Positions 1-64,000 of a DNA stretch of 64,000 nt are shown here, in pieces. The first letter of the stretch is position 1. Every line of letters starts with the position of its first letter. The notes below the pieces were generated by a model, which made no database searches, was not told where the DNA came from, and saw only the letters and a list, made by a program, of their open reading frames with translations. The stretch comes from a virus. Made by a program: the position numbers and the translations under genes. The DNA is taken from positions 67,035 through 131,034 of the IMG/VR virus record IMGVR_UViG_3300045988_126226. One strand, 5' to 3'.

Positions 1-1
1 T

Positions 2-916
2 GAAGAAATAGTAAAACAAAATAAAGAGCTTGAATCTAAAAATTTAGATTTAGATGATTAGTATACAATATTATCAACGGCAGTAAAAAGTATTACTTCC
101 AGAAAAGAAGAAGTAGAAAATAATTTAAATATTCTTTAGTCCAAAAGAGACGAAGTTGAAAATAGTTTAAATTCTTTATAGAATCAGGCAAAGCAATCAG
201 CGGACATTTTCTATCAGCAATCAATGGAAAATGCTCGTGTTCGTCTTGAATATGATTTAAATAAACAAGAATTTAAATATACAAAAGCTAAAGAAGAATA
301 TGAAAATGAATATCAATCAACTCTTGTTGATTGTTCTTTAGAATTATCTAATTTAATTAATTCTAAAAAAGAAGAATTAATTAAATTAGATGAAGAAATT
401 CAATTACATAGTAGAGAAGTCGCGGCCGCAGTTGATGCTGCAAAACGTGCCGAAGAAATTAAAACCAAAGCTGATTTCTATAAATTATAGTTGCCTCAAA
501 TAGATATTGATGAAATCAGTCTTCTTCGTTCTATCGAGCCGAAACTTCGTGACAAAGATATTTTAAATAAAGTAATTTGGAAAAGCTATTATGAAAAACC
601 AACTACAGATTTAATTGGTCGAGTAATTGGCTCTGGAATCCATACGGGGATTTATAAAATTACTAATTTAGAAAATCAAATGTGTTATGTGGGGCAAGCA
701 GTTGATCTTTCCGCGCGTTGGAAACAACATATTAAACGCGGAATTGGTGCAGAGCCCGCCACACGCAATAAACTTTATCCTGCTATGTTGGCTATTGGAG
801 TAGAAAATTTTAGTTTTGAAGTAATAGAAGAATGTTCTCGTGAAGAGTTAGATGTGCGAGAAGATTACTGGCAAGACTATTTTAAAGCTAAGGAATTTGG
901 GTATAGTATAAAATAA
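2..916 (+). CDS. Coiled-coil protein with C-terminal GIY-YIG nuclease domain; 5' partial, with in-frame TAG codons
   Basis: Frame-2 ORF is open from the window edge. TAGs at 56-58, 148-150, 178-180 and 488-490 are read through and join ORFs 224..490 and 491..916. GIY-YIG-like motif GIYKITN...YVGQA...R..H..G is present. Confidence 0.55.
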
Positions 917-1191
917 TGTATAGAATAATTGATAAACGTGGAACAGGAAAAACGAGTAGATTAATACTGTTAGCCAAAGAGAAAAATGCTATTATTGCTT
1001 GTTCTAATCCTGATGCTATGAGAATTAAGTCAGAAGGATATGGAATTATTGGAATTGATTTTATTTCATATTATGATTATATAAATGGGAATTATCCAAA
1101 AGGCAGTATGGTATTCATTGATGAACTTGATTGTTTTGTTCGTTCTCTTGGGCATAATCTAAGCGGATATACTTTAAGTAATGAGGATTGA
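916..1191 (+). CDS. Small hypothetical protein (RGTGKTS P-loop-like)
   Basis: ORF with an ATAATG start overlapping the previous stop. Confidence 0.4.
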   Translation: MYRIIDKRGTGKTSRLILLAKEKNAIIACSNPDAMRIKSEGYGIIGIDFISYYDYINGNYPKGSMVFIDELDCFVRSLGHNLSGYTLSNED

Positions 1192-1193
1192 TT

Positions 1194-1856
1194 ATGAAAA
1201 ATAATAAAATCGTCAGTAATGTAAGAGTTTATGATTTGCCAGAAAGTATGGTTGCTTCTGGATATCCAATGAGAACGGATACCGAGCAACATCCAATTAA
1301 TGATAAAGATATGACAAGATGTTAGAATCTTATATCTGCCACAAAAAGTGGTAATATGGCCCATGCCCAATTTTTAACCGGTATTAGAGTTAATTTTGAT
1401 TTAACTTTTTCCAATAAGGCTTGGGTCGAAGCAGAAAGATATAGATTCCTTGAATTTGTATCTTCACAATCCACGATGCATTGCATTACTAAATTTGATT
1501 TAAATGAACAATATAATGAATATGTTGATCCAAGAATCATTGAAATAATGCGTGAGAAAGTTGATATTTATAATAAACTTTTAAATATTATTGATAGAAT
1601 TAAGCATTGTGAAACTGAAAACAAAAATGAAAAAATTAAAATGCTTGAGCAGTTAGAAGAGATTAGAAAAGAAAAATATCTTGGAATTCTATACTCTAAT
1701 CCTGCTGGATTTTTGCTTACCGCAAGATTAACTACTAATTATAGATGTTTAAGAAACATATATATTTAGAGAAAAAACCATCGTCTTCCCGAATGGAGAG
1801 AATTCTGTAAATGGATTGAAACTCTTCCTTATGCGGAAGAACTATTGGTAAATTAA
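1194..1856 (+). CDS. Hypothetical protein (2 in-frame TAG)
   Basis: ATG at 1194 and TAA at 1854-56. The frame stays open through TAG and joins ORF 1356..1769. Confidence 0.45.
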
Positions 1857-1863
1857 TCATAAC

Positions 1864-1892
1864 TTGATTTTTCTAAATAAATATTATATAAT
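1864..1892 (+). promoter_or_regulatory. Sigma70-like promoter TTGATT-17-TATAAT
   Basis: -35/-10 hexamers with a 17-nt spacer upstream of gene 1931. Confidence 0.5.
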
Positions 1893-1930
1893 ATTTATAT
1901 AAGATAAAGAAAGGTTATAAACTTTTTAAA

Positions 1931-2308
1931 ATGAGTAAGAAACAAGCATTTATTGATTATGTTGAAGAATTAATTGTTGCCACTAATGAAAACCGCTATC
2001 CAATAGTAATGAGTGAAGATGCTAGTATCTATTGGGAAGCGTTAAAAGCTAAAGAAGAAACTGAAAAGCCTCTATTTACTGAGGGCGGAAAAGCCATTAT
2101 TAAATGGATGCAAGATAATAATAAAGATATTCCTCTTGTTAAATCAAGAGAAATTGCCGAATATCTCGGTGTGTCTAGCCGTGGAGTTGCGGGTTCCATG
2201 CGCAAATTAGTATCTGATGGTTTCGTAGAAAAAGTTAGTCAAGATCCAATTATTTATACTTTAACAGAAAAAGGAAAAAATATTAATTTATTGAATTTAT
2301 TTAATTAA
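1931..2308 (+). CDS. Winged-helix DNA-binding protein (MarR-like)
   Basis: The C-terminal segment KSREIAEYLGVSSRGVAGSMRKL has an HTH character. Confidence 0.45.
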   Translation: MSKKQAFIDYVEELIVATNENRYPIVMSEDASIYWEALKAKEETEKPLFTEGGKAIIKWMQDNNKDIPLVKSREIAEYLGVSSRGVAGSMRKLVSDGFVEKVSQDPIIYTLTEKGKNINLLNLFN

Positions 2309-2322
2309 GGAGAAATTTATTT

Positions 2323-3270
2323 ATGAAGAAAGTAATGGAAAATGCTACTCATATTGAAGGTATCTTGTACGAACATGCTTTGGAAAATAAGGTAACCGGA
2401 CCAAATTCTAAGAACCCCGGCACTCCTTTTATTTCTGGTACTATTAGTATTGCTACTGATAATGCTCTTACTAATATCGTCCAGGTTCACTTTACTTATG
2501 TAACTCAAACTACTACTAAGGGCACTCCCAATGCTACATATAGTATTCTTCAGAATATTATTGATGGTACAATCGGTAATTATATGGCTGATGGAGAAGA
2601 TAAAGCTGCTAAGCTTCGTGTCGATTCTGCGATTGGTCTTAATGAATTTTATTCTGATCGTAACGGCAAGGAAGAGCTTGTAAGCACTAAGCGCAATGAG
2701 GGCGGATTTGTTCATACTACTACCACTCTTATTGATGATGAAAAGCAGCGCAATACTTTTAAGTGTGACATGATTATCACCAATGTGACTCATGTTGATG
2801 CTGATGAAGAGCATAATATCCCTGAAAAGGTAATTGTTAAGGGAGCAATTTTTGATTTCCGCAAGTCTTTACTTCCTGTTGAGTTTACAGCTACTAATCC
2901 TGGAGCCATGGCTTATTATGAGGGTCTTGGAGCTTCTCCTTCTGAGCCTGTATTCACAAAGCTTTGGGGTCGTCAGGTATCTGAAGTAATTAAGCGCGAG
3001 ATTCGTGAAGAGTCTGCGTTCGGTGACGATAATGTTCGTGAGGTTCAGAGCACTCGTAAGGATTTTGTTATTACCGGTGGCGCTAAGGAGCCTTATGTTT
3101 GGGATGATGAAAGTTCTATTACTGCGAAAGAGCTTACTGAAGCTATGGCCGCACGTGAAACTTATCTTGCTACTTTGAAGCAGCGTCAAGATGAATATAA
3201 AGCTTCTAAGCAAAATGCCACTACTGCTACTACTGTTGCATCCACTGCTACAGAAGGTTTTAAATTCTAA
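2323..3270 (+). CDS. Hypothetical early protein, possibly ssDNA-binding
   Basis: TAG-free 315-aa ORF with a strong RBS and a strong terminator, located next to a Sak4-like ATPase. Function is guessed only from context. Confidence 0.5.
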   Translation: MKKVMENATHIEGILYEHALENKVTGPNSKNPGTPFISGTISIATDNALTNIVQVHFTYVTQTTTKGTPNATYSILQNIIDGTIGNYMADGEDKAAKLRVDSAIGLNEFYSDRNGKEELVSTKRNEGGFVHTTTTLIDDEKQRNTFKCDMIITNVTHVDADEEHNIPEKVIVKGAIFDFRKSLLPVEFTATNPGAMAYYEGLGASPSEPVFTKLWGRQVSEVIKREIREESAFGDDNVREVQSTRKDFVITGGAKEPYVWDDESSITAKELTEAMAARETYLATLKQRQDEYKASKQNATTATTVASTATEGFKF

Positions 3271-3290
3271 TCATGAATTAGCCATTAAAT

Positions 3291-3320
3291 AGCGATGACC
3301 TCCCAATAAGAGGTCATCGC
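3291..3320 (+). terminator. Rho-independent terminator hairpin
   Basis: agcgatgacctc / gaggtcatcgc perfect 11-12 bp stem. Confidence 0.6.
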
Positions 3321-3417
3321 GCTAAAGTTAATTTATATGATGATTTTTGCAATATACTAAATTTAGAAGAAATACTTAAAGAGATAATAATTAAAACAAA
3401 TAAGGAGAAATAACATA

Positions 3418-4413
3418 ATGGCTATTGATTTAACTAAAATTCAACCTCATAAGGTAAGTAAAGATCTTTCTGGTTATATCACTTTTATTTATGGCAAACC
3501 CAAGACCGGCAAGACTACTTTGGCGACTCAGATGCCGAATTCTTTGCTTTTAGCTTTTGAGCAAGGCTATAACTGCCTTCCTGGCGTTATGGCTGCGGAC
3601 ATTACTTCTTGGGCAGAAATGAAGCAAGTCTATCGTGATTTGAAGCGTCCAGAAGTAAAGGCAATGTATAATGCTATTATTGTAGATACTATTGATGAAG
3701 CTGCTAAGTATTGTGAGAAATATATTTGTAATCAAAATCAAATTGAATCTCTTGGAGACCTTGGTTATGGTAAGGGCTGGTCTAAATTCAAAGATGAATT
3801 TAATGAAGTTTTTAGAGGTTTAACTCGTCTTGGATATGCCGTTTTCTTTATCGGCCATGAAAAAGAACAAACTGTAACTCGTCCTGATGGTACTGAGGTT
3901 GTGGCAGTAAGACCAAATCTTTCTCAATCCACTCGCACTATTATCACCGGTATGGCTGATGTTTATGGGTATGCTCATCAAAAAGCAGCAGGCCAAATGT
4001 CTGTCCTAACTCTCCGTTCTGGTAATGACCTTATCGACTGCGGTGGTCGTTTTAAGTACATTGAGAGCGAAATTCCTATGAATTATGATAGTCTTATTAA
4101 TGCCATTCATGAGGCTATTGATAAGGAAGCGGCTGACAATGGTGGTAAATTTGTCACTGATGAAAAGATGGTCGTTGCTCCTGAAGCTCCTACTTATGAT
4201 TATGAAGCACTTATGGCTGAATTTCAAAATCTTGCTGGAGATATGATGAATAAAAATCCTGGATTCTTTGGTCCTCGTATCACTCAAATTATTGATAAAT
4301 ATTTGGGCAAAGGTAAGAAAATTTCTGACGCCACTCCTGAACAGGCAGAATTTGTATCTTTAATTGTTGGTGAAATTAAAGATGATCTTCTTCCTCAAAT
4401 GGAAAATAAGTAA
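3418..4413 (+). CDS. Sak4-like RecA-family ATPase (recombination mediator)
   Basis: Walker A YGKPKTGKTT; size and context are typical of phage Sak4. Confidence 0.55.
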   Translation: MAIDLTKIQPHKVSKDLSGYITFIYGKPKTGKTTLATQMPNSLLLAFEQGYNCLPGVMAADITSWAEMKQVYRDLKRPEVKAMYNAIIVDTIDEAAKYCEKYICNQNQIESLGDLGYGKGWSKFKDEFNEVFRGLTRLGYAVFFIGHEKEQTVTRPDGTEVVAVRPNLSQSTRTIITGMADVYGYAHQKAAGQMSVLTLRSGNDLIDCGGRFKYIESEIPMNYDSLINAIHEAIDKEAADNGGKFVTDEKMVVAPEAPTYDYEALMAEFQNLAGDMMNKNPGFFGPRITQIIDKYLGKGKKISDATPEQAEFVSLIVGEIKDDLLPQMENK

Positions 4414-4430
4414 ATAAAATATAATTTATA

Positions 4431-4456
4431 ACCGGAGTGATAAAAGTCGCTCCGGT
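4431..4456 (+). terminator. Terminator hairpin
   Basis: accggag...ctccggt stem followed by a T-rich run. Confidence 0.5.
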
Positions 4457-4485
4457 TTGACTTTTATTTAAAAATATTGTATAAT
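4457..4485 (+). promoter_or_regulatory. Consensus promoter TTGACT-17-TATAAT
   Basis: Near-perfect hexamers with a 17-nt spacer. Confidence 0.55.
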
Positions 4486-4524
4486 ATTTATATAAAGTAA
4501 TGGAAAGGAGTAATTTATATACAT

Positions 4525-5061
4525 AAAGTTAAATGTATTTATTGTCAGCAGACTTTTGATAGAGATAAGTTTCCTTATGTTCAAATAAAATCTCGAAGAT
4601 ATGCGCACCCTGAATGTGCTAAATAGGCTGAAAATGAAGACACTCCTTTACAAATTCATAATCCGCCCGAAAAAGTAAAAACAAAAGAAGATTTAGATAA
4701 AGAAAAATTTGAAGAATATGTAAAAAATTTATTGGGAGAATCATATATTAATGCTCGCGTCCGCAAGCAAATGAATGATTATATCAGAGAATATCAATAT
4801 ACATATTCTGGAATGTTAAAAGCCTTAGTTTATTTTTATGAGGTTAAAGGAAATAATAAAAATAAAGCTAATGGTGGAATTGGTATTATACCTTTTATTT
4901 ATAAAGACGCTTACAATTATTATTATAATCTTTGGATGATTCAACAATCCAATAAAGATAAAAATGTTATTGATTACGTTCCTAAATTAAAGGAAATAAA
5001 AATTCCTATTCCTAAAAAAGAACCTCGAAAAAGATCAGTTTTTACATTTTTAGATGAATAG
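4525..5061 (+). CDS. Zinc-finger protein (CxxC...HPEC); start uncertain
   Basis: Frame of ORF 4732..5061 is open upstream through TAG at 4621-23 to about 4525. No canonical start was found after the upstream TAA. Confidence 0.35.
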
Positions 5062-5071
5062 GAGGACTTAA

Positions 5072-6604
5072 ATGCCGAGTAAATATGTAGACCCAACAGC
5101 GATTACACAAGTTATAGGGTGTGTATATAATACTCCTTAGCTTTTGGATTTTACTGATAGATATACAATAACTGATGAAGATTTTGCTGATGAATTTCAT
5201 AGAATTGTTTTTGGAGCAATATATAAAATTCATGAATTAGGAGCTTAGAAAATTACTTTAGAAAATATTAGTGATTTTTTTTCTTCTCGACCTAAATATG
5301 AAGCCACATTTAAAGTTAATAAAGGCGAAGAATGGTTATTGAAAGTTTCTGAAAATGCGAAACCTTTGTCATTTGATTATTATTATGGTCGTTTAAAAAA
5401 AATGTCTCTACTTCGTGCTTATGACAGATATGGCATTGATGTTTCTTTTATTTATGATCCTGATAATATTTTAGATACTGAAAAAAAACAATTACAAGAA
5501 GATAATCTTGATAATTCTTCATTAGAGCATATCGCACAATTAATTGATGACCGCATAGAACAAATTAAATATGAGTATGTAAATGACGTTGAAGGAGTTG
5601 CGGTTCAAGCAGGTGATGGAATCTTTGAATTGCTTGACGATTTAGAGCAACATCCAATAGCAGGAAGTCCTCTATATGGGCCATTAATTAATACAGTTAC
5701 TCGTGGCGCAAGACTTAAAAAGTTTTATTTGCGCTCAGCCGCCACCGGTGTAGGTAAAACTCGTTCTATGATTGCGGATTCGTGTTATATTGCTTGTAAT
5801 AAAATATATGATGATACTTTTGGAAGTTGGATTAAAAACGGAATCCAAGAACCAGTATTATATATAACTACAGAGCAAGATAAAAATGAAATTCAAACAA
5901 TGATGCTTGCTTTTCTTTCTAACGTAAATGAAGAACATATTATTTATAATGAATATCAAGGAAATGAAAAAGAACGAGTAATAGAAGCCGCGAAAATTCT
6001 TAAAGATAGTCCATTATATATTCGTGAATTACCTGATTTTTCATTACAGGATGTTGAAAATGAAATCAAAAAAGGCATCCGAGATCACGATGTAAAATAT
6101 ATCTTCCATGACTATATTCATACAAGTATGAAAATTCTTGAAGAAATTACTCGTCGTAGTGGCGGAGTAAAACTTCGTGAAGATAATATACTTTTTATGC
6201 TATCTAACAAATTAAAAGATATCTGTAATCAGTATGGCGTTTTTATTATGTCAGCAACACAGTTAAATGGTGATTATGTTGATTCTAAAACTCCTGATCA
6301 AAATCTTTTGCGTGGAGCAAAATCTATCGCAGATAAAGTAGATTATGGATCAATTCTTTTAAATGTCCAAGATGATGATTTAATTTCATTGGAAAAAATA
6401 CTAAACACAAAATTATTTGATACTCCAACTATTAAAATGTCTGTTTATAAAAATAGACGTGGTAGGTATAAAGGAGTTATTTTATGGTGTAAAGCAGATT
6501 TAGGAACTTGTAGAATTATTCCTATGTTTTGTACTACATATGCTTATGAACTTGTTCCTATTGATGATATAAAAATTACTCTTGAAGAAGAAAGTGCTTT
6601 TTGA
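5072..6604 (+). CDS. dnaB: DnaB-like replicative helicase (2 in-frame TAG)
   Basis: ATG 5072 with RBS aggagg. A DnaB N-terminal domain is encoded across TAGs at 5138 and 5237. Walker A GVGKTRSM lies in ORF 5339..6604. Confidence 0.7.
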
Positions 6605-6658
6605 CAAGGACAATTTTTCTTAAAATGCTCTCCTATTCATTTAAAAATAATAGAGGAG

Positions 6659-7363
6659 ATGAATTTAATGAAAGATTTAACAGGACAAATTTTTAATAGA
6701 TTAACGGTATTGAAATTAGATACAGAAAGAAAATCCAAACAACAATATTGGATTTGTCAATGTTCTTGTGGTACAATAAAAAGTATACAAAGAGCAAACT
6801 TAGTTTCTGGTTTAACTCAATCTTGTGGGTGTTTACGCAAAGAAAAAATTTCAAATAATTTAGTGGGCTAGAAATTTGGTAAATTAACAGTTTTAAAAGA
6901 TAGCGGAAAAAGGACTAAAGAAAGAGGCATTATTTGGGAATGTCAATGTGAATGTGGAAAAATTACAGAAGTATCTTCAAATAGTTTAAAACAAAAAACT
7001 ACTATGTCTTGTGGTTGCCTGAAACAATCGCAAGGGGAGTATATTATAGAAAATATCCTTAAGAAAAATAATATTAGTTATAAAAAAGAATACGTTTTTT
7101 CTGATTTATTATCTCCTAAAAATGGTTATTTAAGATTTGATTTTGCTATATTAGATGATGATAATATGGTAAAAAAATTAATCGAATATGATGGAGAAAC
7201 ACATTCAACAAACTATATTGGAGGATGGAATACTAAAGAAAAAATTATGTATTAGCAAAAATGTGATGAATTAAAAAATAATTATTGTAAAGAACATGGA
7301 ATTCCTTTAATTAGAATTTCATATTTAAATAAAGATAATATTTCATTAAATGATTTAATTTAA
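6659..7363 (+). CDS. Tandem zinc-finger / Vsr-like (PD-(D/E)XK) endonuclease, possible homing nuclease
   Basis: Two repeats of LTVL...W.CQC.CG...SCGCL. The C-terminus EYDGETHS...GGW resembles the Vsr/DUF559 fold. TAGs at 6869 and 7253 are read through. Confidence 0.45.
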
Positions 7364-7380
7364 AATTAAGGAGAAAAATT

Positions 7381-7563
7381 ATGAAGAGTGGTAATGTTGA
7401 ATACAAGATGAGCAATAGAATGGCTAAGGAGATTATTCGTTCTTATAAAGCTGTTCCTAGTCTTGCTAAGCTTCGTCCGCAGGAAATGCTTGTCCATTAT
7501 GTTAATGAACAGTGTGGACTTATGAGAAATTGTTCTAAAGTAATTACTTATGATAGTATTTGA
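7381..7563 (+). CDS. Small hypothetical protein
   Basis: ORF with RBS ggagaaaaatt. Confidence 0.3.
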   Translation: MKSGNVEYKMSNRMAKEIIRSYKAVPSLAKLRPQEMLVHYVNEQCGLMRNCSKVITYDSI

Positions 7564-8653
7564 TAAATCAGAAATTCGTCAAGCTCTTGGGCTTGAAAAT
7601 ATTTATGATTTATTAATTGAATGGGGCGGAGATCCTGAATATACAGAATTTGGGATTCTCTCTTCCACCATTTGTCATAATCCTCCTGGAGAAGGTAGCA
7701 GAAAACTTTATTTTTATGAAAATACAGGATTATTTAAATGCTACACAGGATGTGATTCAACTTTTGATATTTTTGAATTATGTTCTAAAGTAATGAAAAT
7801 TCAATATGATGAAGAATTTGATTTAAATGATTCAGTTTTATGGGTTGCTCGTCGTTTTGGTTTATCAGGTATGATAAAAGATGACGACATGGGTAAAACT
7901 TTAGATGATTGGAAAATTTTATCAAATTATTCTCGTATTCAAGAGATTGAATTAAAAAATAATAAAATTATTTTAAAAGATTATGATGATTCTATTTTAA
8001 ATAGATTAAATTATAATATTAAAATAATTCCTTGGCTTGATGAGGGGATTTCTCAAGAAGTAATTAATAAAGCACGTATTGGTTTTTATCCAGGAGCCGA
8101 TCAAATTACAATTCCTCATTATGATATTAATGGAAGATTTGTGGGCTTGCGCGGACGCACTATGTGCAAAGACGAGGCGGAGCTATATGGAAAATATAGA
8201 CCAATGAAAATAAATAATCAATTATATAATCATCCTCTTGGAATGAACTTATATGGATTAAATTGGTCTAAAAATGCCATTGGCATAATGAAAAAAGCAA
8301 TAATTTTTGAAAGTGAAAAATCAGTATTGAAATATGCTACTGATTTCGGTTGGAATAACAATATATCAGTAGCTTGTTGCGGAAGTAATGTTTCTTCGCA
8401 TCAAATTCAATTATTATTAGATAGTGGCGCGCAAGAGATTATAATTGCTTTTGATAGACAATTCCAAGAAATTGGAGACGCGGAATTTCAACACTTAAAA
8501 TTAAATCTTTTAAAGATTAGAACTAAATTTAAAAATGATGTGCTTATATCTTTTATTTTTGATAAAAATATGATTACAAAATACAAAGATTCACCAATTG
8601 ATGATGGTAAAGAAAAATTTTTACAATTATATAAGGAAAGGATATTTATATGA
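7550..8653 (+). CDS. dnaG: DnaG-like primase (CHC2 zinc finger)
   Basis: N-terminal C..H..C..C zinc-binding motif (CHNPPGEG...KCYTGC) and position next to the helicase. Confidence 0.55.
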   Translation: MIVFDKSEIRQALGLENIYDLLIEWGGDPEYTEFGILSSTICHNPPGEGSRKLYFYENTGLFKCYTGCDSTFDIFELCSKVMKIQYDEEFDLNDSVLWVARRFGLSGMIKDDDMGKTLDDWKILSNYSRIQEIELKNNKIILKDYDDSILNRLNYNIKIIPWLDEGISQEVINKARIGFYPGADQITIPHYDINGRFVGLRGRTMCKDEAELYGKYRPMKINNQLYNHPLGMNLYGLNWSKNAIGIMKKAIIFESEKSVLKYATDFGWNNNISVACCGSNVSSHQIQLLLDSGAQEIIIAFDRQFQEIGDAEFQHLKLNLLKIRTKFKNDVLISFIFDKNMITKYKDSPIDDGKEKFLQLYKERIFI

Positions 8654-8940
8654 ATGATGACTATGATATTCCTATCTCTGTAAATGATACAATTATTTCA
8701 CTAAGCGCGCAAATTGAAGGATTAAAAAAACAAAGAGATAGTTTGCTCCGAAGTTGTATTTATTGCGATAAATGTAATAAATATTATGACAAAACCAGTA
8801 ATTGTATATCAAGTGGAATTGAAACTCGAAAAGTAATTAGATATAATGGAGATTTAGAAAAAGGATATACGGAAATGGAAATTCCTGTTCTTTTTCATAT
8901 TTGTCCATTAGGGCATAAGATGGGAGAGAGTGGTTTATGA
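8650..8940 (+). CDS. Zinc-ribbon protein
   Basis: CIYCDKC...C Cys cluster; translationally coupled overlaps. Confidence 0.4.
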   Translation: MNDDYDIPISVNDTIISLSAQIEGLKKQRDSLLRSCIYCDKCNKYYDKTSNCISSGIETRKVIRYNGDLEKGYTEMEIPVLFHICPLGHKMGESGL

Positions 8941-9254
8941 CAGGTATTGTTTGGTGTAATACTTTCATTGAAGGAACTGAACAATTAGAAAGAATTGAAG
9001 AACAATATAAAGCAATGGATATAAAACCAATAGAAAAAAATAAATCTATTAATTGTTATTCTATAGTTTTTGAAAATGAAGATTATTGGAAAGTAGTTAT
9101 TTCTACTGAAAATGCCAGAGGTCATAAGTGTAATATTTCTTATATTTCTCGTCAGACCCCTCTTTCAGTTATTGACACTATTATTTTTCCATGCACAAGA
9201 GCCCTTCCTTATACTGCTTATCATTACTATGGTGATCCAGTAGGAGAGGACTGA
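8937..9254 (+). CDS. Hypothetical protein
   Basis: ORF with an overlapping start. Confidence 0.35.
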   Translation: MTGIVWCNTFIEGTEQLERIEEQYKAMDIKPIEKNKSINCYSIVFENEDYWKVVISTENARGHKCNISYISRQTPLSVIDTIIFPCTRALPYTAYHYYGDPVGED

Positions 9255-9323
9255 TATGAATAAGTAAATTATAGAAATTCTTAAATAATAGTGGTGGTAT
9301 TATGAAAGGAGGTTGAATAGCCT

Positions 9324-11072: not shown

Positions 11073-11125
11073 TAATTGACACTACGACTAATAGACTTAA
11101 AAAACCTATTAGGAGGAAATCATTT

Positions 11126-11965: not shown

Positions 11966-11969
11966 TTTT

Positions 11970-12005
11970 ATGGCTATATGAAGATTTATTTCTTCATATA
12001 GCCAT
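11970..12005 (+). terminator. Terminator hairpin
   Basis: atggctatatgaag / cttcatatagccat stem of about 13 bp. Confidence 0.55.
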
Positions 12006-52287: not shown

Positions 52288-52288
52288 T

Positions 52289-52465
52289 TTATCCCTCCTA
52301 ATTATTTTCGTTATTCTTCTCCTCTTGAAGATCTATTAATCTATTTGTAAAATCTCTTAATTGTTTTAAGCACTCTCCCATAAGAATAGTATCTTCTCCT
52401 TTAGTTGATACTAAAGAAAGAGTATTGTATAAAACTTTTAAAAAATTAATATCTTGTTCTTTCAT
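52289..52465 (-). CDS. Small hypothetical protein (58 aa)
   Basis: RBS aaaggagaaaaaggaaa plus ATG 52465. TAG 52298 is read through to TAA 52289. Confidence 0.35.
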
Positions 52466-52487
52466 TTTCCTTTTTCTCCTTTTTAAT

Positions 52488-55400: not shown

Positions 55401-55937
55401 ATAATTACCGCTCACTATACCGAGCGTTTCAAGCCAGGCGCGAAAATCGGCACGCAGGCCTAACCGCGTAAATCCCTATTGCTCATCAGTAAAGGTAATT
55501 CCGCCACTTGGAGTAATCTCAATTTCCTCTTCACTACCATTGGCTAAAATACTCCAAACTTCTTTATTATTATCTTTAGCAACAAAAAAATTTCCAGTTA
55601 AATCAATAAAAGTGTTAAAAGGATTAACAAAATTATATGGCTTATCTTCATTTTTATCAGTCTTTTTACCAACAATAAATTTAGTGCTATTATAGTCTCC
55701 TTTTGGAATCTATACATACACTTTATCACCTTTGTTATAAGTGGTTATTTGGGAATAAGCATAAAATTCTGCATAAGATTCGTTTTTAACCTTATACTTA
55801 CCAATAAGTTTATCAGTCGCATCAGTAATAGTACATTCAATAGTGCTATCAAATTTAACTTTATCAACACTTGAATTAGCAATAATACTCATTGCTTGAC
55901 ATAAACTTTCTTGAATATTTAGTGCGTTATCAGCCAA
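52488..55937 (-). CDS. Large tail protein directly after the tape measure (evolved Dit-like candidate, about 1149 aa)
   Basis: RBS aggaggg plus TTG 55937. Five ORF fragments are in one frame. All gaps were scanned and hold only TAG; TAA 52488. Confidence 0.5.
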
Positions 55938-56009
55938 AATAATCCCTCCTTTTACTCATTACTCTATAATTTTCTAAAAAATTAATTAGTTTTATTCAAT
56001 ATAATTACC

Positions 56010-56052
56010 CAAAAAGAAAAAGGGTGAAGCCTATAAGACTTCACCCTTAATT
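56010..56052. terminator. Hairpin after the tape measure stop
   Basis: agggtgaag / cttcaccct stem with A-rich and T-rich flanks. Confidence 0.45.
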
Positions 56053-59000
56053 TTATTTTCTATTGGCATACTGAGAAGCTACATTAACTAATGTATTAAA
56101 TGCTTCTTGAATTTCATATCTATCAGTAGCGTTCGGGAAACTAGCTTCAATTCTAACATTCTGTTCTAATGTTCCATCTTGAGAACTAACAGTAAATCCA
56201 GAAGAAGAAAGAGTAGAGATTTGTTGACTATTGAAATCTAATTGTTTTGCGATCTATCTAACTAATTGGATAGAAGCTAACATATTTTCCGTATCATCAG
56301 CATTAAGAACTAATTCTTTCTAATGTAAGAACGCTAATTTTCCGCTATCATTCCAAGTACCAGTATAACCACCGCTTCTAAATCCGACTAAATCTCTCCA
56401 TTCCTAATCAGTAAGCTGAGTAAAACTATACTTGCCGTTAGGAAGTCTACCAGAAATTTTTCCTTCACTTAACAATTTATAATACGCATCAACTCGAGCC
56501 GTAGTATCTTCATTAATACTACCACCATTAGCAATTTTTTCTTCACGGTTTCTTTTATACTGATTATATTGAGCGGAGCCATAAGCTACAGTACCCATCA
56601 TCGCCGCCCAATCAGTATCTCCACCACTAGAACTGCTATTACCAAATCCGCTCTAAGCGCGCAATGTCGCTTGAATGGCGTTCAAAAGCTCTTCATAAGC
56701 TCTAATAGTATCAAGTAATTGCTGACGATGTTGTGCCCAAGCTTCAGTAGCACTACGAACAGAACTTAACTCACTTTCAAGAGCAGGAATAACTCTATTA
56801 GATACTTCTTGATAAAGTTTATTACTTTCATCAGTAACATCTTTAACTTTCTATTGAGTATCTTTTAAATCATCACCAACAATTTTACTAATTTCATCCA
56901 TGCTATCTTGCCATTCTTTAAATGTATCATTGATAATATTAGTGTTTTCAGTAATAGCATCTTTCCAACTATTACTATTATCTTTGATAATATCAAAAGA
57001 ATTTACCCAAGCATCTTGAACGACTCTACTATCCTCCTCTTGAGCTTTCGCATAAAGGTTTCCAGCAGTAGTAATTAAATCAGTATATTGTTGAATTACT
57101 AATGCGCGTTCTTGCTGATATGTGGTCTCGCGGTAAACGGCATCTTCCGCGGCTTTCTAATCAAGTTCCGCAAGTTTGTCAGCCAGCTCTTTCTCATATT
57201 GAAGTTTTTGTTGACCATATTTATTTGTCGCATCAAGACGAATGTTATATAAATCATTTTCCGCGTCTGCTAAAGCCTATTGCGCATCATTTACTTTCTC
57301 TTGGTCTGCGGTATACACATAACCAAAATTACCTTCATTATCGCGTTGTAATCTAACCGTAGACTTTGCGTTTTGAGCTTCTTCTAATGCGATTTGTGCT
57401 TCAAGCACTTTATATTTAGCCTAAGCAATTTCTAATTCTAATTGACTTAATTTATCTTTATCTCTTAACTATTCAATCTCTTTGGTAAATTGCTGGTATC
57501 TATTTTTAGCTGCTTGATTATTTGTCTTATCAATAGCCTAATTAACATTATTAAGTAGTTTATTCATTTCATAAATCTAATTAGTTTTTGTTAAATACTC
57601 ATCTTGATAAGAAGACATTCTATCCAAAGCATCATTTAAAGCATCCCAACCGGAAATATTAAAGTTCTTACCATTAATACTCACTTTAGTAGTGCTTAAT
57701 TGCTTATTCATTTCATCCGCAGCTTGTTCCATCTTTGTGGTAAGAATTTCTTTTAACGCTTCGCCATATTCTTCAGCTTTAGAAAGCATATCTTCTTCCG
57801 CTTCATCGAACGCGGCTAATATAGCATCATAATTCTTTTGAAGCACTTCACGTTCCGCCTCATCGGTCGAATTGGCTAAGGCCGCGGCCGCGGCATCACG
57901 TTCACGCTTCAAGCTTTCATACCATTGTTTAGAAGTATCAAAATTATTTTTCTTAGTCTAAGCAGTTCCATTTAAAACTGATAAAACTTTATCATAATCT
58001 TTATCTTTACCTAACAAAGTAATAATAGAACGATAATGATCCAATACACTAGTCAAATGCTCCATATGATCTGTATATTTAGACAATTCATCATTTGCTA
58101 AATCTATAGTATTACCATAATATTCAAGCATTTCTTTATCTAAATCCTACAAAGCATTTAAATTATCTAATGTATTATCATACACGTCTTGTAAGCCTTC
58201 GATATAATTTTCTTGAGAAATTTCTCCATTAGAATAAGCATTGTTTAATTGACTATAGAAATTCTCATAAGTTCCTAATTGACTAATTACTGGATCAAAT
58301 TGACCTTGTAAATATCCAAGAGCTTCAGCGGCTTTATAGATATTATCACTTAATTTATCAAAATAATATTCTAATTTCTTAGTATCATTTTCATCTAATT
58401 GAACCTTTACTTCAACTTCATAAGTAAGCATTTGATAATTTCTGTCTTGCCACTCGTTTATTTTATCTTGAATATCATCAGTTAATTCTTCGACTAAATC
58501 TCTTGTATCTTCATATTGGCTAATGGCATCTTTTAACTCATCAATTTTCTTTTGAATCGGATCTAAAGTTGCTTCTTTATAAGCATCTTGAGCATCTTTT
58601 GTAGAGAAAGAATTTGCTTTATCCTATGCGGCTACAAGCTAATTATAAAGTTTAGTCATCTAATCAGTATAATTAGAAATATCACCATCTTCATCAAATG
58701 TGAAAGTAATTCCAGCTTTTTTCGCAGCTTGCTATAAAGTAGCTTTATCTGTCTTTAAATAAGCCTAAGCTTCTTTTTGCTTTTGTTTTAATAAATCAAC
58801 TTCTTTTAAAGTTAACTTATTGCTTTTAGCCATCGCATCAAGATGAGCTTTACCCCAAAGCCTATCCGCTGATTTATTAGCTTTATCTAAAGCACGAGTA
58901 GTATCGTTGATGCTATCAGTTATTTCTTTATACCTATCAACAATATCAGATTTTTTAGATTTATCAATTTTAGAAGGCTTAGAAGAAGAAGAGCCACCAC

Positions 59001-62000
59001 TTGATTTACTTCCCCCTGATCCTCCAGAATTGGTAGAAGAATGATTGTTCGAACTGCCAGTAGCTTTTCGCCAGAATCCTCTAATTTTAGGAGGAGTTTT
59101 TCCACCACTAAAAGATACTAAACGCATATCGCCAGGAGATTTTGTAGGCTCCTCAGCTTTTGTTTCTGTTCTTGTTGTAATTGAAGGTAAATTAATAGTA
59201 TGTTTACCCAAGAATCCAAGATCAAAAGTTTTAGGATTGTCAAATTTAGTATCTACCACACGAGTAATAGTTTCAGCATTTGGCATCTCCGCAGAAGTGT
59301 CAATATCTTCTGCATTATAAACTGGTTCATAACCAATTCCCGCAAAATAAGCATTTGCTTCATCTGCAGTCATCTAAGATTCCTTAACTAAGTCGTTAGC
59401 TGCTTCTAAGAAATCAGCGTCATCAACTTTTGCTCCGACCTCAATTGTTGGATCAAGCTTAGAGCAAGCATCTTTAACTTTCTAGTCTAAAGAATTTATC
59501 TAAGCAGTAAATTCTTCATCTTGTCCTAAAGTAATTCTAGCAATAATCTCTTCATCCATTGAACTTCTTAAAGAATCAATGGCTTTTTCATCGCCTTTAG
59601 CCGCTTTAGCAATTTCATCTAAATGGTTAGTAACAAAATCATCTGAAATAAATTCTTCTTCAACATCAAGAACATCAGATAAAGCAGAACGAGTTTTAGC
59701 TAAAGCATTAAAATATTCTTGACTACCCTTAGTGCTATTCTTTAAAATATCATTCCAAGTTTCAAAATTACCTGATAAAGTTTCTACTCCTTTATTCATT
59801 CGAGTAATCTAAACTGCTAAACGAGCAGCTGCGTTAGCGTCCTAAGAAACACTGTCATCAAATTCTGATGAATTTTTAGATACTTCAAGAATATAAGAAG
59901 CATAATCTTTCATAGACTAAACTTCATCATCACTTAATCCCATTTCTTTACCGGCATTAGTAAAGAAATCAGACATACTATTTAATTCTCCGATAGCATT
60001 TAAATCCTTAAGACCATCTTTAAACTCATTAATAGTTACCTATCCACCAGCTAATTGCTATATTAATCTTTGATAAGCTTCGCTTTGTTTATCTATATAT
60101 TTAATACTTTCACTAAAATTCTATAAATCTTCTTCAGAAGTACCATAGGCTCTAACGATTTTATTAAAATATTTAGTGCCTAATTCTGTATCACCAAAAG
60201 ATTCTTGTAAGTTTCTCTAAAAACTATCTAAATAATTTAATTGATTTAAATCTAAATTACTTAAATCTATACCGTTTAAAGATTTCTGCAAAGTATTCTA
60301 TAAAGCTGTAGTAAATTTTTCAGCTACTTCAGGAGAAGAATAAGCTTCTGCTAACTAACTATAAAATTGATCTGCACTAACTTTTAATTCTTCATCATCA
60401 ACTTTCAAAATCATATTACCATTACGCTAAGCAACATAAGATACATCTTCATACCCTTGCTATTTAAGTAACTACATATAATCTTGAATTTCTTGCTCAT
60501 TACCGCTATAATTTATATGTTTATTCCATTTAAAATCTTTCTATAATTTAGACTTCTAATCCGCAACCGTCTAACTATAAATATCTTCTCCATTAAATAA
60601 GTCATTTATTTCATCAACAGTTCTATCACTTCCAAGAGCCGAAAATTCTGCTTCTAATAAGTTATTATATAATAATTTTCCCTATTCTTTTAAAGAAGAA
60701 TTTTTAGTTATCTAATCTTTATTCTCCAAAATAGATTGATAAAATGCTTCAACTGTATCTTCCTCAACATTTTCAATTCCAGCCCCCGTCGCGTCAGCTA
60801 TTGCATTTAATAATTCATTAGCCCCTTCTTTTGTATAAATCATATTCCCAAAACTAGGATTGTCGGTGGCATTTTGAATTATTTCATTTAACTAAGTCTT
60901 AGTAAGATTACTGCCTCCCAATGTTGACGCGACGATTCCTAAGCCACGACTAGTATCTTTAAATGAGCTATAGCTATTTTCAATTTGCTAATTATTTAAA
61001 GCAATCTAATCTTTTATTTTTGTGGCAGTTGCTACTTTAAGATTTTCTTTTTGAGACTCTTCTAAATATTTTCGTCCTTCATCACTAATGTCCATAGCTC
61101 CATTTTCATCGGCGCTAATATATTTAGATAACTCAGGATATTTCTCTAATAATTTAGTAATTTCAGCATTAACATCAGAAATAGCTTTATACCACTCAAT
61201 TGTTCCAGGAACTAAATCACCAATTGTATCTTTATAAGACTATAATTTTTCTAATGCTGAATTAGTTTCATCAATATTGTTATTTAATTTATCAAAAGCT
61301 TCAGAACTTGCTTTTGCATTTTCTTCTAATTTCTTTAATTTTGCTTCTGGAGTGCTTTCCTACATTTTTTTAAACCTAATAGCAATTAAAGCTACGGCTC
61401 CCGCTAAAGCAATAAAAACTCCAACCGCGATAAGTGCTGTCGCAGCAACTAAATTTATACCCATTTTTGCGGCCAATAAAGCTGCTGTCTAAATTAATAA
61501 ACTATTAGCAAATTTAGTAGAAGCCAAAGCCGCCTAAATCTCTGCTAAAGTCATTTTTTTAGTAATAACTACTTTACCTTTTCCTGCCGCAGTATTAGCA
61601 TTTATAGCAATAGTTTCAAGCAATGTCTATGCTGCTGATTTTAATTGAACAGCAGTTTTCTTTAATTCTGCTTGTTTAAATTGATTTACAGCAGAAGTTA
61701 AAGAAACTAAAGCCATACTTAAAGACATAGTAACCGATAATAGTTTGTCTCCAATACTCATATCTTCATCTTGTAAAGTATCAATAGCTCCTTTTAAAGA
61801 CATTAATCCCATTGCTAAAGAAGAAAGAGCTGTAAAACTCTAAGTAATTGATTTACCAAAATCATTTAAAGCACTTTGATATCCGCTAATAGCACTTTTT
61901 ATTTCAATAAACTATTTACGTAATCCTTTATTACCATTTTTTACAATTTCAGTTTTTTCTTTTAATTTTAATAAAGTATTTCCTAAATTTTCTGCAAGAT

Positions 62001-64000
62001 TATCAAATTTTTTAGCAGCTTTACCAGTTATTCCAAACTATTGCTTTAAAGCTTGAATTTGAGCACTTACTTCAATTGCAGTATCAGATAATAAATCCTT
62101 TGCATTTACATTTTCTAATTTTTCAAATTCTTTTCTGAATTTTTCTGCACTCAATTTTCCACTCTCAAAACGAGATGATAAGCTTCTTACTTTCTTGGCA
62201 GATTTTGTTAAATGTACCTAATCTAATGCTTTAGCTAATACATTAAATTCAGTATGGAGTTCAGTAGATTTATTTTTTAAAGTCCCAATTTTTTCATTAA
62301 TAGTATCTAAAGCAACTGATCCTTGGCGTCCTACATCTACCACATCATTTAAACTTTGTCTTACTTGTGAATAACTTTTTAAATTATTTTCTACATTACC
62401 ATTCGTAGAATCATTTCTTATAATTGATCTTAAGCTAGTATTAATACTCTGTAACTCTTCAGTTACCTAATCTTTAGCCTAGGCAGCTTTAACAACCTAG
62501 TCTCCATAAGCCTAATTAATTTTAATTAAATTTTCTAACTATTCTCTTTCCTATGTAGTTATATTTCCAGAAATCTTCTAAATTTCTTTTTTTAACTCTA
62601 AAGTATATTTTAATTGTTCTCCAGAAATAGCATCTGCTTCAGTGACATTATTAAAAGCCATATTAGAAGCTCTAGAATAAGCTTCTTCTTTCATCTATTC
62701 AGCAGAACGTTTAGTTTGACCTAATAGAGATTGTATTCCAAAGCCAATATTACTTAATCCTTGGGCAATCTACTAATTAAAAACTTTAGTAAAAATTACT
62801 CCAACCGCAGCAATTACTCCAGGTAATCCACCCATACTTTTTATTAGATCATTTATTTTATCTAAAACATCAGCCAATAAATCATTTAATGTAATAAAAA
62901 ATTTATCATTAATTAACTCTGCATAAATTCCTTGAGCTGCTGCCTTTACACGATCTCTTGCGGCTTCCCAAGACTCTGCATAAATATCTGCCTATTTTTG
63001 AAGAGAACCATCAGCATTCTATGCTCTTTCAAGATTTTCTTGATAAAAATCAAAATTATCCATTAAAGCAATTAATTGATTATATTGACGGATACCAGCT
63101 ACTTGTTGAGCTAAAGCTATCTATTGATCTTTACTAATTGTTGACCATTTATGACCCAATTCATCAAGAATGAGATCCATATCTTTTAATTGTCCATTAG
63201 AGTCTTTAATATTAATTCCAACTTTTTCAAGAGCTTGTGAATATTGATTTAATGTAGTGCCATCTTCAAGAGTTTCACCAAGCTTTAAACCTTGAATACG
63301 GGCAAAAATAGTCTTTAAGGAAGTACCTACTACATCTTCACTCTAACGGGTAGTAGCAGTAATAGTTGCTAATGCAGCAGCCGCATTGTCAAAACTTAAA
63401 CCAATCGTATTAGCAACAGCCGCGAATTTCTCAAGGCCGCCAACGATTTCATCAGTACTAGATGCAGTATCAGCACCTAAACGTACCATTGCATCAGCAT
63501 AATGCTCTAATGACTAACTTCCATCATAGAAATTATTCCAAACTGCTGTCATTTGGTCTGAAACTATTTCAGCGCTCTAACGAGCGACATTAGCCATTTT
63601 TATAGTAATATCAGTACGTTCTTTTACCTATTCATCATCTAAACCCTACTGATAATAAATTAAAGCAGCATCAGTATATTCAGTCGTAGTTGTACTTAAA
63701 GCCTTAGCAGCAATATTTGCCTATTTAGCAAATTTGGCCATCTAATCAGTGCTCTAACCAGTAACAATACGAATATTATTTAAAGATTCATTTAAATCTT
63801 CCGCATAACGATAAGCACTCGAAATTGCTCCAGTAAAACTATGCAATGCGCTAGAAGAAATCTGCCAACGAGCAGTATTCTTCATAACAATCCACATTTC
63901 AGAAACTAAAGCACTCGTTCTCTTTAATGGAACATCAGCTTCAATAATAGATTGAGCCAAAGACATAAAAGCTTTTTGTCCTTCTGACCCTAATTCCATT
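56053..64000 (-). CDS. Tail tape measure protein; 3' part, runs off the window (over 2650 codons), TAG-dense
   Basis: All - strand ORF fragments from 56404 to 63999 lie in one frame (position mod 3 = 1). The sequence is helical, Ala/Lys/Glu-rich and TMP-like; TAA at 56053. Confidence 0.55.

What the first reader, a model, noticed from the sequence alone, without database searches (positions are those of the whole stretch)
1..64000. Whole segment uses a TAG-reassigned genetic code (amber read as sense, probably Gln)
In-frame TAG codons sit inside clearly continuous, conserved proteins on both strands: DnaE PHP and finger motifs across TAG 18066-68, RecJ DHH motif I immediately after a TAG, and the NrdD ATP-cone to glycine-radical junction. 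Every gene ends in TAA or TGA. One reading frame stays open for 7.7 kb in about 29% GC DNA with dozens of TAGs and no TAA/TGA. This is the signature of stop-codon-recoded phages, and it explains the shredded six-frame track. What follows from established knowledge: TAG-recoded phages such as crAss-like and Lak phages reassign TAG to Gln using a suppressor tRNA and often bring their own release-factor or tRNA machinery. The identity of the amino acid here is inference.
Basis: partly seen in the sequence, partly recalled or inferred. Interest (0 to 1): 0.9.

Follow-up and report, generated by a model that had tools for sequence, protein, structure and literature searches.

The report
Gut phage reading TAG as glutamine
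This 64-kb stretch belongs to a roughly 193-kb human-gut phage that reads the TAG stop codon as the amino acid glutamine, which is real but is an already well-described habit of gut phages.

Summary
With TAG as a stop, 64.9% of the window is coding, in 87 short ORFs. With TAG as sense, 96.9% is coding, in 57 ORFs, two of them over 2,580 codons. Making TGA sense gives no such gain. I count 220 in-frame TAGs. Every gene model ends in TAA (41) or TGA (14).

Pfam domains of DnaE, NrdD, RecJ and the tape-measure protein run across TAGs. In related phages, window TAGs align with TAG, CAA and CAG. They never align with TAA or TGA. A likelihood test picks glutamine by more than 130 log units.

TAG supplies 12% of Gln-type codons in the replication genes and 36% in the late genes.

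The window holds no tRNA. Full-length relatives (97% identical in the replication module) carry a CUA-anticodon tRNA about 52 kb upstream. It is followed by an HDV-like (theta-type) ribozyme.

All of this matches published code-15 gut phages (Borges 2021, Peters 2022, Babkin 2023, Kienbeck 2024). Public gene calls on a scaffold identical to window 1-14,413 already read through TAG. This is a new member of a known kind, and interest is low.

The parts
1..64000 (.). Whole window: TAG-recoded phage DNA. There are 220 in-frame TAG codons in 55 gene models, with stops TAA (41) and TGA (14).
   Evidence: Window 1-14413 is 100% identical to ENA scaffold ZEEV15-1_SAMEA3664924_METAG-scaffold_27 (193,058 bp).
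2..26153 (+). Replication and nucleotide-metabolism block with SPbeta-like synteny. TAG makes up 12% of Gln-type codons, and 17 of 34 genes contain TAG.
5072..6604 (+). DnaB-like helicase with 2 in-frame TAG (5138, 5246).
   Evidence: Pfam DnaB and DnaB_C match across them.
9324..11072 (+). RecJ-like exonuclease with 6 in-frame TAG (9531, 9801, 10059, 10329, 10950, 11019).
   Evidence: Pfam DHH, DHHA1 and RecJ_OB. In SPbeta YorK these positions are Q, E, E, N, N, Q. PDB 8y30 has Q at the last two.
16098..20111 (+). DnaE-type DNA polymerase, 1,337 codons, with one TAG at 18066-68.
   Evidence: PHP, pol3_alpha, finger and HHH_6 domains lie on both sides of the TAG. It is 41-44% identical to the polymerases of SPbeta YorL, Enterococcus phages and phAss-1.
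20691..23009 (+). NrdD anaerobic ribonucleotide reductase with one TAG at 21405-07.
   Evidence: One NRDD Pfam match spans it. It aligns to Q in PDB 9d3x and in T4 NrdD 1h78, and to M in 8p23.
26188..63999 (-). Late (tail and tail-fibre) block. TAG makes up 36% of Gln-type codons, and all 21 minus-strand gene models contain TAG.
   Evidence: Fisher test against the plus-strand genes gives p = 4e-14.
34283..42031 (-). 2,582-codon tail-fibre-like gene with 28 in-frame TAG.
52488..55892 (-). 1,134-codon tail gene. TAG is its main Gln codon (23 TAG against 15 CAA and 1 CAG).
56053..63999 (-). Tape-measure protein. 2,648 codons lie in the window with 71 TAG, and the 5' end lies beyond the window.
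   Evidence: The PhageMin_Tail domain (99 bits) spans several TAGs. Relative L080 shows about 110 more codons upstream.

Best explanation
The window is about one third of a ~193-kb tailed phage genome from the human gut. The phage has an SPbeta-like replication module and a very long tape-measure gene. It uses genetic code 15, in which UAG is translated as glutamine and only UAA and UGA terminate.

Decoding is done by a phage-encoded tRNA with anticodon CUA. In full-length relatives this tRNA sits in a tRNA array about 52 kb upstream of window position 1. It has no encoded CCA. One nucleotide after its discriminator base lies an HDV-like (theta-type) self-cleaving ribozyme, which would cut out the tRNA 3' end.

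TAG density rises from the replication genes to the tail genes (and, outside the window, the lysis genes). Full expression of late proteins therefore depends on the suppressor being present.

Shown: TAG is sense; its evolutionary behaviour is that of a Gln codon; a CUA tRNA with an adjoining ribozyme-like element exists in the lineage.

Inferred: that this tRNA is charged with Gln; that the ribozyme is active; that recoding times late-gene expression.
For: Coding density:
- It rises from 64.9% to 96.9% when TAG is sense. There is no gain with TGA as sense.
- There are 220 in-frame TAG.
- Pfam domains of DnaE, NrdD, RecJ, DnaB and the tape measure are continuous across TAGs.

Amino-acid identity:
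- In 70-95% identical protein alignments with related phage contigs, TAG lies opposite TAG 55 times, CAA 38, CAG 8, GAA 5, AAA 4 and GAG 3. It never lies opposite TAT, TAC or TGG.
- The log-likelihood of the partner residues is best for Q by 138, 293 and 184 units in the three identity bins below 95%.
- At nucleotide level, TAG aligns to TAG 288 times, CAA 109 and CAG 23, and never to TAA or TGA.
- Standard-code homologues have Q at the NrdD TAG (T4 NrdD and 9d3x). They have Q at two RecJ TAGs in PDB 8y30. SPbeta YorK has Q, E, E, N, N, Q at the six RecJ TAGs, including Q just before DHH motif I.

Suppressor tRNA:
- A CUA tRNA is present in L336 (194,410-bp scaffold, the same genome as an IMG contig that is 97.3% identical to window 1-4334).
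- It is also in L344 (194,887 bp), L325, L327, L329 and L269.
- ARAGORN positive control on phAss-1.
- In L336, L344 and L325 (the three close relatives), the tRNAs share an unpaired 1:72, G2-C71, G73 and the loop CUCUAAA. From my own knowledge, these acceptor features are those used by GlnRS and GatCAB.

Ribozyme:
- The HDV-like element follows only the CUA tRNAs among about 300 tRNAs.
- It gives a weak Rfam HDV hit (27.3 bits).

TAG bias:
- TAG share is 12% on the plus strand against 36% on the minus strand, p = 4e-14.
- The endolysin of a relative has 9 TAG.

Literature: bioRxiv 10.1101/2021.08.26.457843, PMC9523058, PMC10607447, PMC10879173.
Against: The window itself has no tRNA and no Rfam hit.

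I could not read the tRNA region of the genome the window comes from (scaffold_27). The suppressor is shown only in relatives.

About 49 kb of the ~194-kb genome type was never read.

Three quite different CUA tRNAs occupy the same slot in close relatives (67% identity; one has a long variable arm like class II tRNAs). None is a clear copy of the neighbouring tRNA-Gln(UUG) (58% identity). The charged amino acid is therefore not shown by the tRNA itself.

Half of the replication genes contain TAG, so a strictly late switch cannot be the whole story.

The relatives used for the substitution table are not independent samples.

The ribozyme hit is below Rfam's gathering score.
Confidence: 0.93

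Rival explanations
1. TAG is sense but encodes an amino acid other than Gln (Tyr, Ser, Leu, Trp, Glu, Lys or pyrrolysine). For example, the long-variable-arm CUA tRNA seen in some strains might be charged by a class II-type synthetase such as SerRS.
For: One CUA tRNA type (L325, L329, and one in phAss-1) is 90-91 nt long, with a long variable arm and G73. From my own knowledge, these are features that SerRS uses. ARAGORN labels CUA tRNAs as 'Pyl' by default. Kienbeck et al. predict non-Gln isotypes for about 30% of phage suppressor tRNAs (PMC10879173).
Against: TAG aligns with Q codons far more than with anything else, and its other partners (E, K, R, N) are those typical of Gln. Ser, Tyr, Trp and Leu are rare or absent in the 70-95% identity bin, even though TAT, TAC, TGG, TCG and TTG are single-base neighbours of TAG. 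Q beats the next candidate by more than 130 log-likelihood units. Standard-code homologues show Q at conserved sites.
Confidence: 0.04
2. TAG has two meanings in this phage. It is a true stop for some early genes translated before the suppressor appears, and a sense codon later, so some of the long gene models are over-extended.
For: Some TAGs lie within 7-16 codons of the TAA/TGA stop (genes at 4771-5082, 26188-26508, 23006-23500). In relative L310, a small ORF reaches a TAG just before tRNA-Tyr, and reading through would run across the tRNA gene. A JGI gene call ends one fibre protein at a terminal TAG (404 aa against 405 aa). About 15 small ORFs beyond the terminase genes of a relative are almost TAG-free.
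Against: No window TAG is replaced by TAA or TGA in any aligned relative, and no aligned stop codon is replaced by TAG. The terminal TAG of the fibre protein is CAA in L325. Internal TAGs in conserved domains cannot be stops.
Confidence: 0.1
3. The TAGs are real stops. The segment would then be a decayed prophage full of nonsense mutations, or a chimeric assembly of strains.
For: Under table 11 the six-frame picture is shredded.
Against: There are 220 TAG but no in-frame TAA or TGA in 19,895 codons. TAG positions are conserved or exchanged with CAA/CAG across dozens of independent assemblies from different cohorts. The window start (1-14,413) is 100% identical to an independent ENA scaffold.
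Confidence: 0.005

Closest known systems
Code-15 (TAG to Gln) gut phages: crAss-like, Lak, and the Jade, Sapphire and Agate clades of Borges et al. (bioRxiv 10.1101/2021.08.26.457843). The code was validated by proteomics in crAss-like phages (PMC9523058).
   Same: Low GC. In-frame TAG aligns with Gln. TAG is enriched in structural and lysis genes and used variably in replication genes. A suppressor tRNA(CUA) is present. The source is the gut. Genome size is about 190-200 kb, like the large clades named there. Structural modules are spread over the genome.
   Different: I could not test membership of a named clade, because no reference sequences were available. No RF2 was found in the roughly 145 kb read. 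The replication module is SPbeta-like (YorF, YorI, YorK, YorL), which points to a Firmicutes host rather than Bacteroidota.
phAss-1 / 'Phassvirus' group (OQ749652; Babkin et al. 2023, PMC10607447), listed by NCBI under 'Caudoviricetes code 15 clade'.
   Same: Human gut siphovirus-type genome with TAG as Gln, a DnaE-type polymerase (44% identical), NrdD, a tape measure of about 3,000 aa, many tRNAs, and both the short and the long-variable-arm CUA tRNA types (77-80% identical to the ones here).
   Different: phAss-1 is 136 kb against about 193 kb here. Protein similarity is only distant. In phAss-1 the suppressor tRNAs sit next to NrdD, whereas here they sit in a tRNA array 52 kb from the replication genes.
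tRNA-associated theta (minimal HDV-like) ribozymes (Kienbeck et al. 2024, PMC10879173).
   Same: The ribozyme-like element starts 1 nt after the discriminator base of a suppressor tRNA that lacks an encoded CCA, in a gut Caudoviricetes genome recoded to code 15.
   Different: The Rfam HDV-F-prausnitzii score is below threshold. I did not find the sequence in the held supplementary files. Self-cleavage is untested.
Bacillus phage SPbeta replication module (yorF to yorL).
   Same: A YorF-like protein, DnaB-like helicase, RecJ-like exonuclease and DnaE-like polymerase occur in the same order.
   Different: SPbeta uses the standard code, is temperate and is 134 kb long.

Membership tests
Genetic code 15 phage (TAG reassigned to Gln) | In-frame TAG inside conserved genes, with coding density restored when TAG is read as sense. 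| tested here: met
   Coding density rises from 64.9% to 96.9%. Pfam domains span the TAGs.
Genetic code 15 phage (TAG reassigned to Gln) | TAG positions align with glutamine in homologues. | tested here: met
   Q is the best fit by more than 130 log-likelihood units. Partners are CAA and CAG. Q is found in T4 NrdD, PDB 9d3x, PDB 8y30 and SPbeta YorK.
Genetic code 15 phage (TAG reassigned to Gln) | TAA and TGA remain the only terminators. | tested here: met
   41 TAA and 14 TGA stops. TAG and TAA/TGA never exchange between relatives.
Genetic code 15 phage (TAG reassigned to Gln) | Phage-encoded suppressor tRNA with anticodon CUA. | tested here: inconclusive
   Absent from the window. Present in full-length relatives L336 and L344 and in L325, L327 and L329. 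The corresponding part of the window's own scaffold could not be fetched.
Genetic code 15 phage (TAG reassigned to Gln) | Gln actually inserted at UAG (protein-level evidence). | not testable with these tools
   This needs proteomics. It has been done for crAss-like phages only (PMC9523058).
Genetic code 15 phage (TAG reassigned to Gln) | Accessory code-change genes (RF2, aminoacyl-tRNA synthetase). These are optional in the literature. | tested here: not met
   The GGQH[VI]N release-factor motif is absent from the window and all loci fetched up. About 49 kb of the genome type was not read. A GlnRS was not searched for specifically.
Theta / minimal HDV-like ribozyme | Nested double pseudoknot: P1 with a G1-U wobble, P2, P3 with an L3 like UCCUCG, P1.1, and a catalytic C in J4/2. 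| tested here: inconclusive
   By inspection of L336 3688-3740: P1 GGUGCUA/UAGCACU, P2 AAACAAA/UUUGUUU, CC-UCCUCGU-GG, a GG for P1.1, and UAAUG-C-UAA as in HDV. The Rfam score is 27.3 bits against a gathering score of 44. No covariation is available, because the copies are nearly identical.
Theta / minimal HDV-like ribozyme | Cleavage site within 5 nt of a tRNA 3' end. | tested here: met
   The element starts 1 nt after G73 of the CUA tRNA in L325, L336 and L344. It was found after no other tRNA.
Named clade of Borges et al. (Jade, Sapphire or Agate) | Terminase phylogeny places the genome inside the clade. | not tested
   No clade reference sequences were available in the tools.

The most novel reading that the evidence does not exclude
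Near-identical strains of this phage carry three unrelated-looking CUA tRNAs in one slot: two 73-nt forms at 67% identity, and a 90-nt form with a long variable arm. All sit in front of the same conserved HDV-like ribozyme. If these tRNAs are charged with different amino acids, or with different efficiency, then the meaning or strength of UAG decoding would differ between strains of one phage. The suppressor slot would then be a swappable cassette, sometimes accompanied by a GIY-YIG homing endonuclease.
Probability: 0.08. Interest if true: 0.6.

Novelty: new member of a known kind. Interest (0 to 1): 0.2.

Why it matters
Annotating this segment with table 11 breaks most late genes into fragments and loses a third of the coding capacity. 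Code 15 must be used instead.

Beyond that the case is ordinary. TAG-to-Gln recoding with a phage suppressor tRNA is well documented in gut phages, and gene calls in public collections already read through TAG on a scaffold identical to window 1-14,413.

The lineage is common (the exact Sak4-like protein is indexed in 674 blocks of the collection). It could therefore serve as a Firmicutes-side model for studying how and when the code switch happens. That is a use, not a discovery.

Tried and rejected
- TGA or TAA as the reassigned codon. TGA as sense gives no gain. TAA as sense opens all frames non-specifically without producing long ORFs.

- tRNA and Rfam scans. They found nothing in the window or in about 30 kb on either side in dozens of relatives. 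The tRNA array was reached only after walking with all eight viral scans, the metagenome scan and three protein searches.

- Release factor. A motif search was negative.

- DnaB and DnaE TAG positions. They fall in variable regions of standard-code homologues and say nothing about the amino acid.

- Origin of the suppressor. I looked for a recent copy of tRNA-Gln or tRNA-Tyr and found none (58% identity to the neighbouring tRNA-Gln).

- Kienbeck supplements. A search for the tRNA and ribozyme sequences found no match in the held text.

- Nucleotide search of GenBank phages. It found no close relative.

- ORFs at 42150-43802 and 43811-44428. They lack early ATGs and looked odd, but are simply TTG-initiated tail-fibre genes.

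- Host. The only pointers are MAG bin labels (Clostridium sp., Acutalibacteraceae, 'Mollicutes'), which are weak evidence.


Full report
**Observation**

The window is 30.1% GC. Under table 11 the longest stop-to-stop ORF is 680 aa, and ORFs of 100 aa or more sum to 14,253 aa. With TAG as sense they sum to 23,093 aa and the longest are 2,648 and 2,583 aa. With TGA as sense the longest is still 680 aa.

A greedy non-overlapping gene set covers 64.9% of the window under table 11 (87 ORFs). It covers 96.9% with TAG as sense (57 ORFs) and 67.5% with TGA as sense.

The two giant minus-strand frames, 34283-42034 and 56053-63999, hold 28 and 71 TAG. Neither has an internal TAA or TGA. The other frames of the same DNA carry TAA+TGA at roughly 4-15% of codons, so the chance of such an open frame is about 1e-63.

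- TAG 18066-68 is in frame in DnaE.
- TAG 9531-33 sits immediately before VDSDCDGY of RecJ.
- TAG 21405-07 is inside NrdD.

Pfam matches run on both sides of or straight across these codons. They cover PHP, DNA_pol3_alpha, finger and HHH_6 in DnaE; one 630-residue NRDD match in NrdD; DHH, DHHA1 and RecJ_OB in RecJ; DnaB_C in DnaB; and PhageMin_Tail in the tape-measure protein.

**What TAG means**

I fetched about 340 related loci from IMG/VR, ENA, Logan and GTDB. I translated them with TAG as X and aligned them to the window proteins.

In alignments of 95% identity or more, TAG lies opposite TAG 101 times and opposite Q 3 times. In the 70-95% bin the partners are TAG 55, CAA 38, CAG 8, GAA 5, AAA 4 and GAG 3. 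There is no TAT, TAC, TGG, TCG or TTG, although these are single-base neighbours of TAG.

I scored the partner residues against each amino acid's own substitution profile from the same alignments. Gln comes first by 138, 293 and 184 log-likelihood units in the three bins below 95% identity.

At nucleotide level, window TAGs align to TAG 288 times, CAA 109, CAG 23 and GAA 25. They never align to TAA or TGA. Window stop codons with aligned relatives never align to TAG. These counts are not independent events, because relatives share ancestry, but the pattern is one-sided.

Standard-code homologues agree:
- The NrdD TAG is Q in T4 NrdD (1h78) and in 9d3x, and M in 8p23.
- Two RecJ TAGs are Q in PDB 8y30.
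- SPbeta YorK has Q, E, E, N, N, Q at the six RecJ TAGs, with Q at the position before DHH motif I.
- The DnaE and DnaB TAGs fall in variable positions and are uninformative.

**Distribution of TAG**

There are 220 in-frame TAG in 55 gene models, and 38 genes have at least one.

| Gene set | TAG share of TAG+CAA+CAG | TAG per 1,000 codons | Genes with TAG |
|---|---|---|---|
| Plus strand (replication) | 12% | 4.3 | 17 of 34 |
| Minus strand (tail, tail fibre) | 36% | 15.9 | 21 of 21 |

The difference gives Fisher p = 4e-14. In the 1,134-codon tail gene at 52488-55892, TAG is the main Gln codon (23 against 16).

Outside the window, a relative's endolysin has 9 TAG, its terminase 6 and its portal 11. 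The capsid-like and tail-tube-like genes have none. A block of small ORFs beyond the terminase genes is almost TAG-free.

This is the pattern reported for recoded gut phages: late and lysis genes are recoded, and replication genes are variable (bioRxiv 10.1101/2021.08.26.457843).

**Where the window comes from**

Window 1-14413 is 100% identical to ENA scaffold ZEEV15-1_SAMEA3664924_METAG-scaffold_27 (193,058 bp), from a human gut metagenome.

The window's Sak4-like protein is indexed in 674 blocks of the assembly collection, on contigs up to about 193 kb from several human-gut cohorts. One IMG/VR contig carries two copies of the GyrB marker 193,139 bp apart, which gives the unit genome length.

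The gene calls stored for these contigs already read through TAG: RecJ 582 aa, DnaB 510 aa, DnaE 1,329 aa. The recoding has therefore already been picked up by automated pipelines.

The closest GenBank phage is phAss-1, a described code-15 gut phage (DnaE 44% identical). NCBI keeps a 'Caudoviricetes code 15 clade'.

The replication module is syntenic with SPbeta yorF to yorL. MAG bins that hold this phage are labelled Clostridium sp., Acutalibacteraceae and 'Mollicutes'. That is only a weak pointer to the host.

**Mechanism**

The window has no tRNA and no Rfam family hit. About 30 kb on either side in many relatives has none either.

Walking upstream past GyrB/GyrA, the lysis cassette and a block of accessory genes reaches a dispersed tRNA array. 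A tRNA with anticodon CUA sits between tRNA-Val or tRNA-Gln and tRNA-Tyr. It is present in:
- L336, a 194,410-bp scaffold. This is the same genome as an IMG contig that is 97.3% identical to window 1-4334. The tRNA lies about 52 kb upstream of the window start.
- L344, a 194,887-bp scaffold.
- L325, which is 88-93% identical to other family contigs.
- More distant relatives L327, L329 and L269.

ARAGORN found the two annotated tRNA-Sup-CTA genes of phAss-1, which serves as a positive control.

The three close-relative CUA tRNAs (L336, L344, L325) share an unpaired 1:72, G2-C71, discriminator G73, the loop CUCUAAA and no encoded CCA. From my own knowledge, a weak or unpaired 1:72, G2-C71 and G73 are acceptor-end identity elements of tRNA-Gln.

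Otherwise the tRNAs differ sharply. There are two 73-nt forms at 67% identity and a 90-nt form with a long variable arm. None is a recent copy of the neighbouring tRNA-Gln(UUG). The charged amino acid therefore rests on the codon-alignment evidence, not on the tRNA.

One nucleotide after G73 each of these tRNAs is followed by the same element, GGUGCUAAAA(A)CAAAACCUCCUCGUGGUAGCACUGGGUAAUGCUAAUUUGUUU. By inspection it can form:
- P1 (GGUGCUA/UAGCACU, with a G1-U wobble).
- P2 (AAACAAA/UUUGUUU).
- P3 with an L3 loop (CC-UCCUCGU-GG).
- P1.1 (a GG).
- UAAUG-C-UAA, which resembles the J4/2 of the HDV ribozyme.

It gives a sub-threshold Rfam hit to HDV-F-prausnitzii (27.3 bits against a gathering score of 44, E = 0.026). 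Its core motif occurs after no other tRNA among about 300 in the fetched loci.

This is the arrangement described for theta ribozymes next to suppressor tRNAs in code-15 gut phages (PMC10879173).

No release-factor motif was found. About 49 kb of the genome type remained unread.

**Rivals**

Another amino acid is very unlikely on the alignment evidence. It cannot be excluded at the level of tRNA charging, especially for the long-arm form.

A dual reading (TAG as a stop early in infection) has a few hints:
- Some TAGs lie close to gene ends.
- In L310 a small ORF would read through a TAG into a tRNA gene.
- A JGI gene call ends one fibre protein at a terminal TAG.

Against it, no TAG exchanges with TAA or TGA between relatives.

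Decay or chimeric assembly is excluded.

**Verdict**

The finding is correct and well read, but it is a textbook example of a known phenomenon in a common gut phage lineage. It is a new member of a known kind. Its practical value is for annotation, and its scientific interest is low.

Noticed in passing
window 13126-15177: The PIF1/Dda-like helicase is a single 397-aa gene in most strains. Here, and in the identical ENA scaffold, it is cut after codon 29 by a ~0.85-kb insert. The insert carries an HNH-type ORF (13480-13995), a diverged second copy of the first ~30 codons, and a 4-nt TAAC insertion just before the Walker A codons. It may be an intron, a free-standing homing element or a broken gene.
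   Followed up: partly
window 6592-7358 (gene 6659-7363): A 767-bp indel holds a Cys-rich gene with a weak DUF2726 match. It is present in the window and in the identical scaffold but absent from 12 other close relatives. Paralogues occur elsewhere in the genome, so it looks like a mobile endonuclease-type gene.
   Followed up: partly
window 29363-30079 (+): A phage gene with a response-regulator receiver domain and a weak LytTR DNA-binding domain sits on the opposite strand inside the late-gene block.
   Followed up: no
window 42150-43802 and 43811-44428 (-): Two tail-fibre genes with Mtd_N-like N-termini appear to start at TTG, 9 nt after AAAGGAG. ATG-based gene finding truncates them badly.
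   Followed up: partly
L336 3614-3740; L344 3622-3750; L325 1626-1770: Three different CUA-anticodon tRNAs (two 73-nt forms at 67% identity, and a 90-nt form with a long variable arm) occupy the same slot in closely related genomes. Each is followed by the same HDV-like ribozyme element. In L325 a GIY-YIG endonuclease gene sits directly upstream.
   Followed up: partly
L309 11263-11391: A RAGATH-33 RNA (124.5 bits, above the gathering score) lies directly after tRNA-Leu(UAA) in the phage tRNA array.
   Followed up: no
L325 326-524: ARAGORN predicts a tRNA-Glu(UUC) gene interrupted by a 123-nt insert in the anticodon loop. The insert is too short for a typical group I intron.
   Followed up: no
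L332 (CAMELE010000001.1) and L333 (JALFQD010000403.1): GTDB species-representative MAGs labelled 'uncultured Mollicutes bacterium' and 'Clostridium sp.' contain contigs of this phage (164 kb and 53 kb, 96-97% identical to the window). This is probably mis-binning.
   Followed up: no
L080 1505-2632 and 6583-7620 (beyond the window end): The capsid-like (376 aa) and tail-tube-like (346 aa) genes have no TAG, although neighbouring late genes have 3-11. The most highly expressed late genes may avoid the recoded codon.
   Followed up: no
L227 10400-20426: Beyond the terminase genes lies a block of small ORFs that are almost TAG-free and appear richer in G+C from their amino-acid make-up. A recurring upstream motif translates as YTIIVPR. 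It may be the early region, written in the standard code.
   Followed up: no
P0124 vs P0125 (fibre protein of L313/L336): The same gene ends ...TAG TAA. One public call stops at TAG (404 aa) and another reads through it (405 aa). The TAG is CAA in L325.
   Followed up: partly
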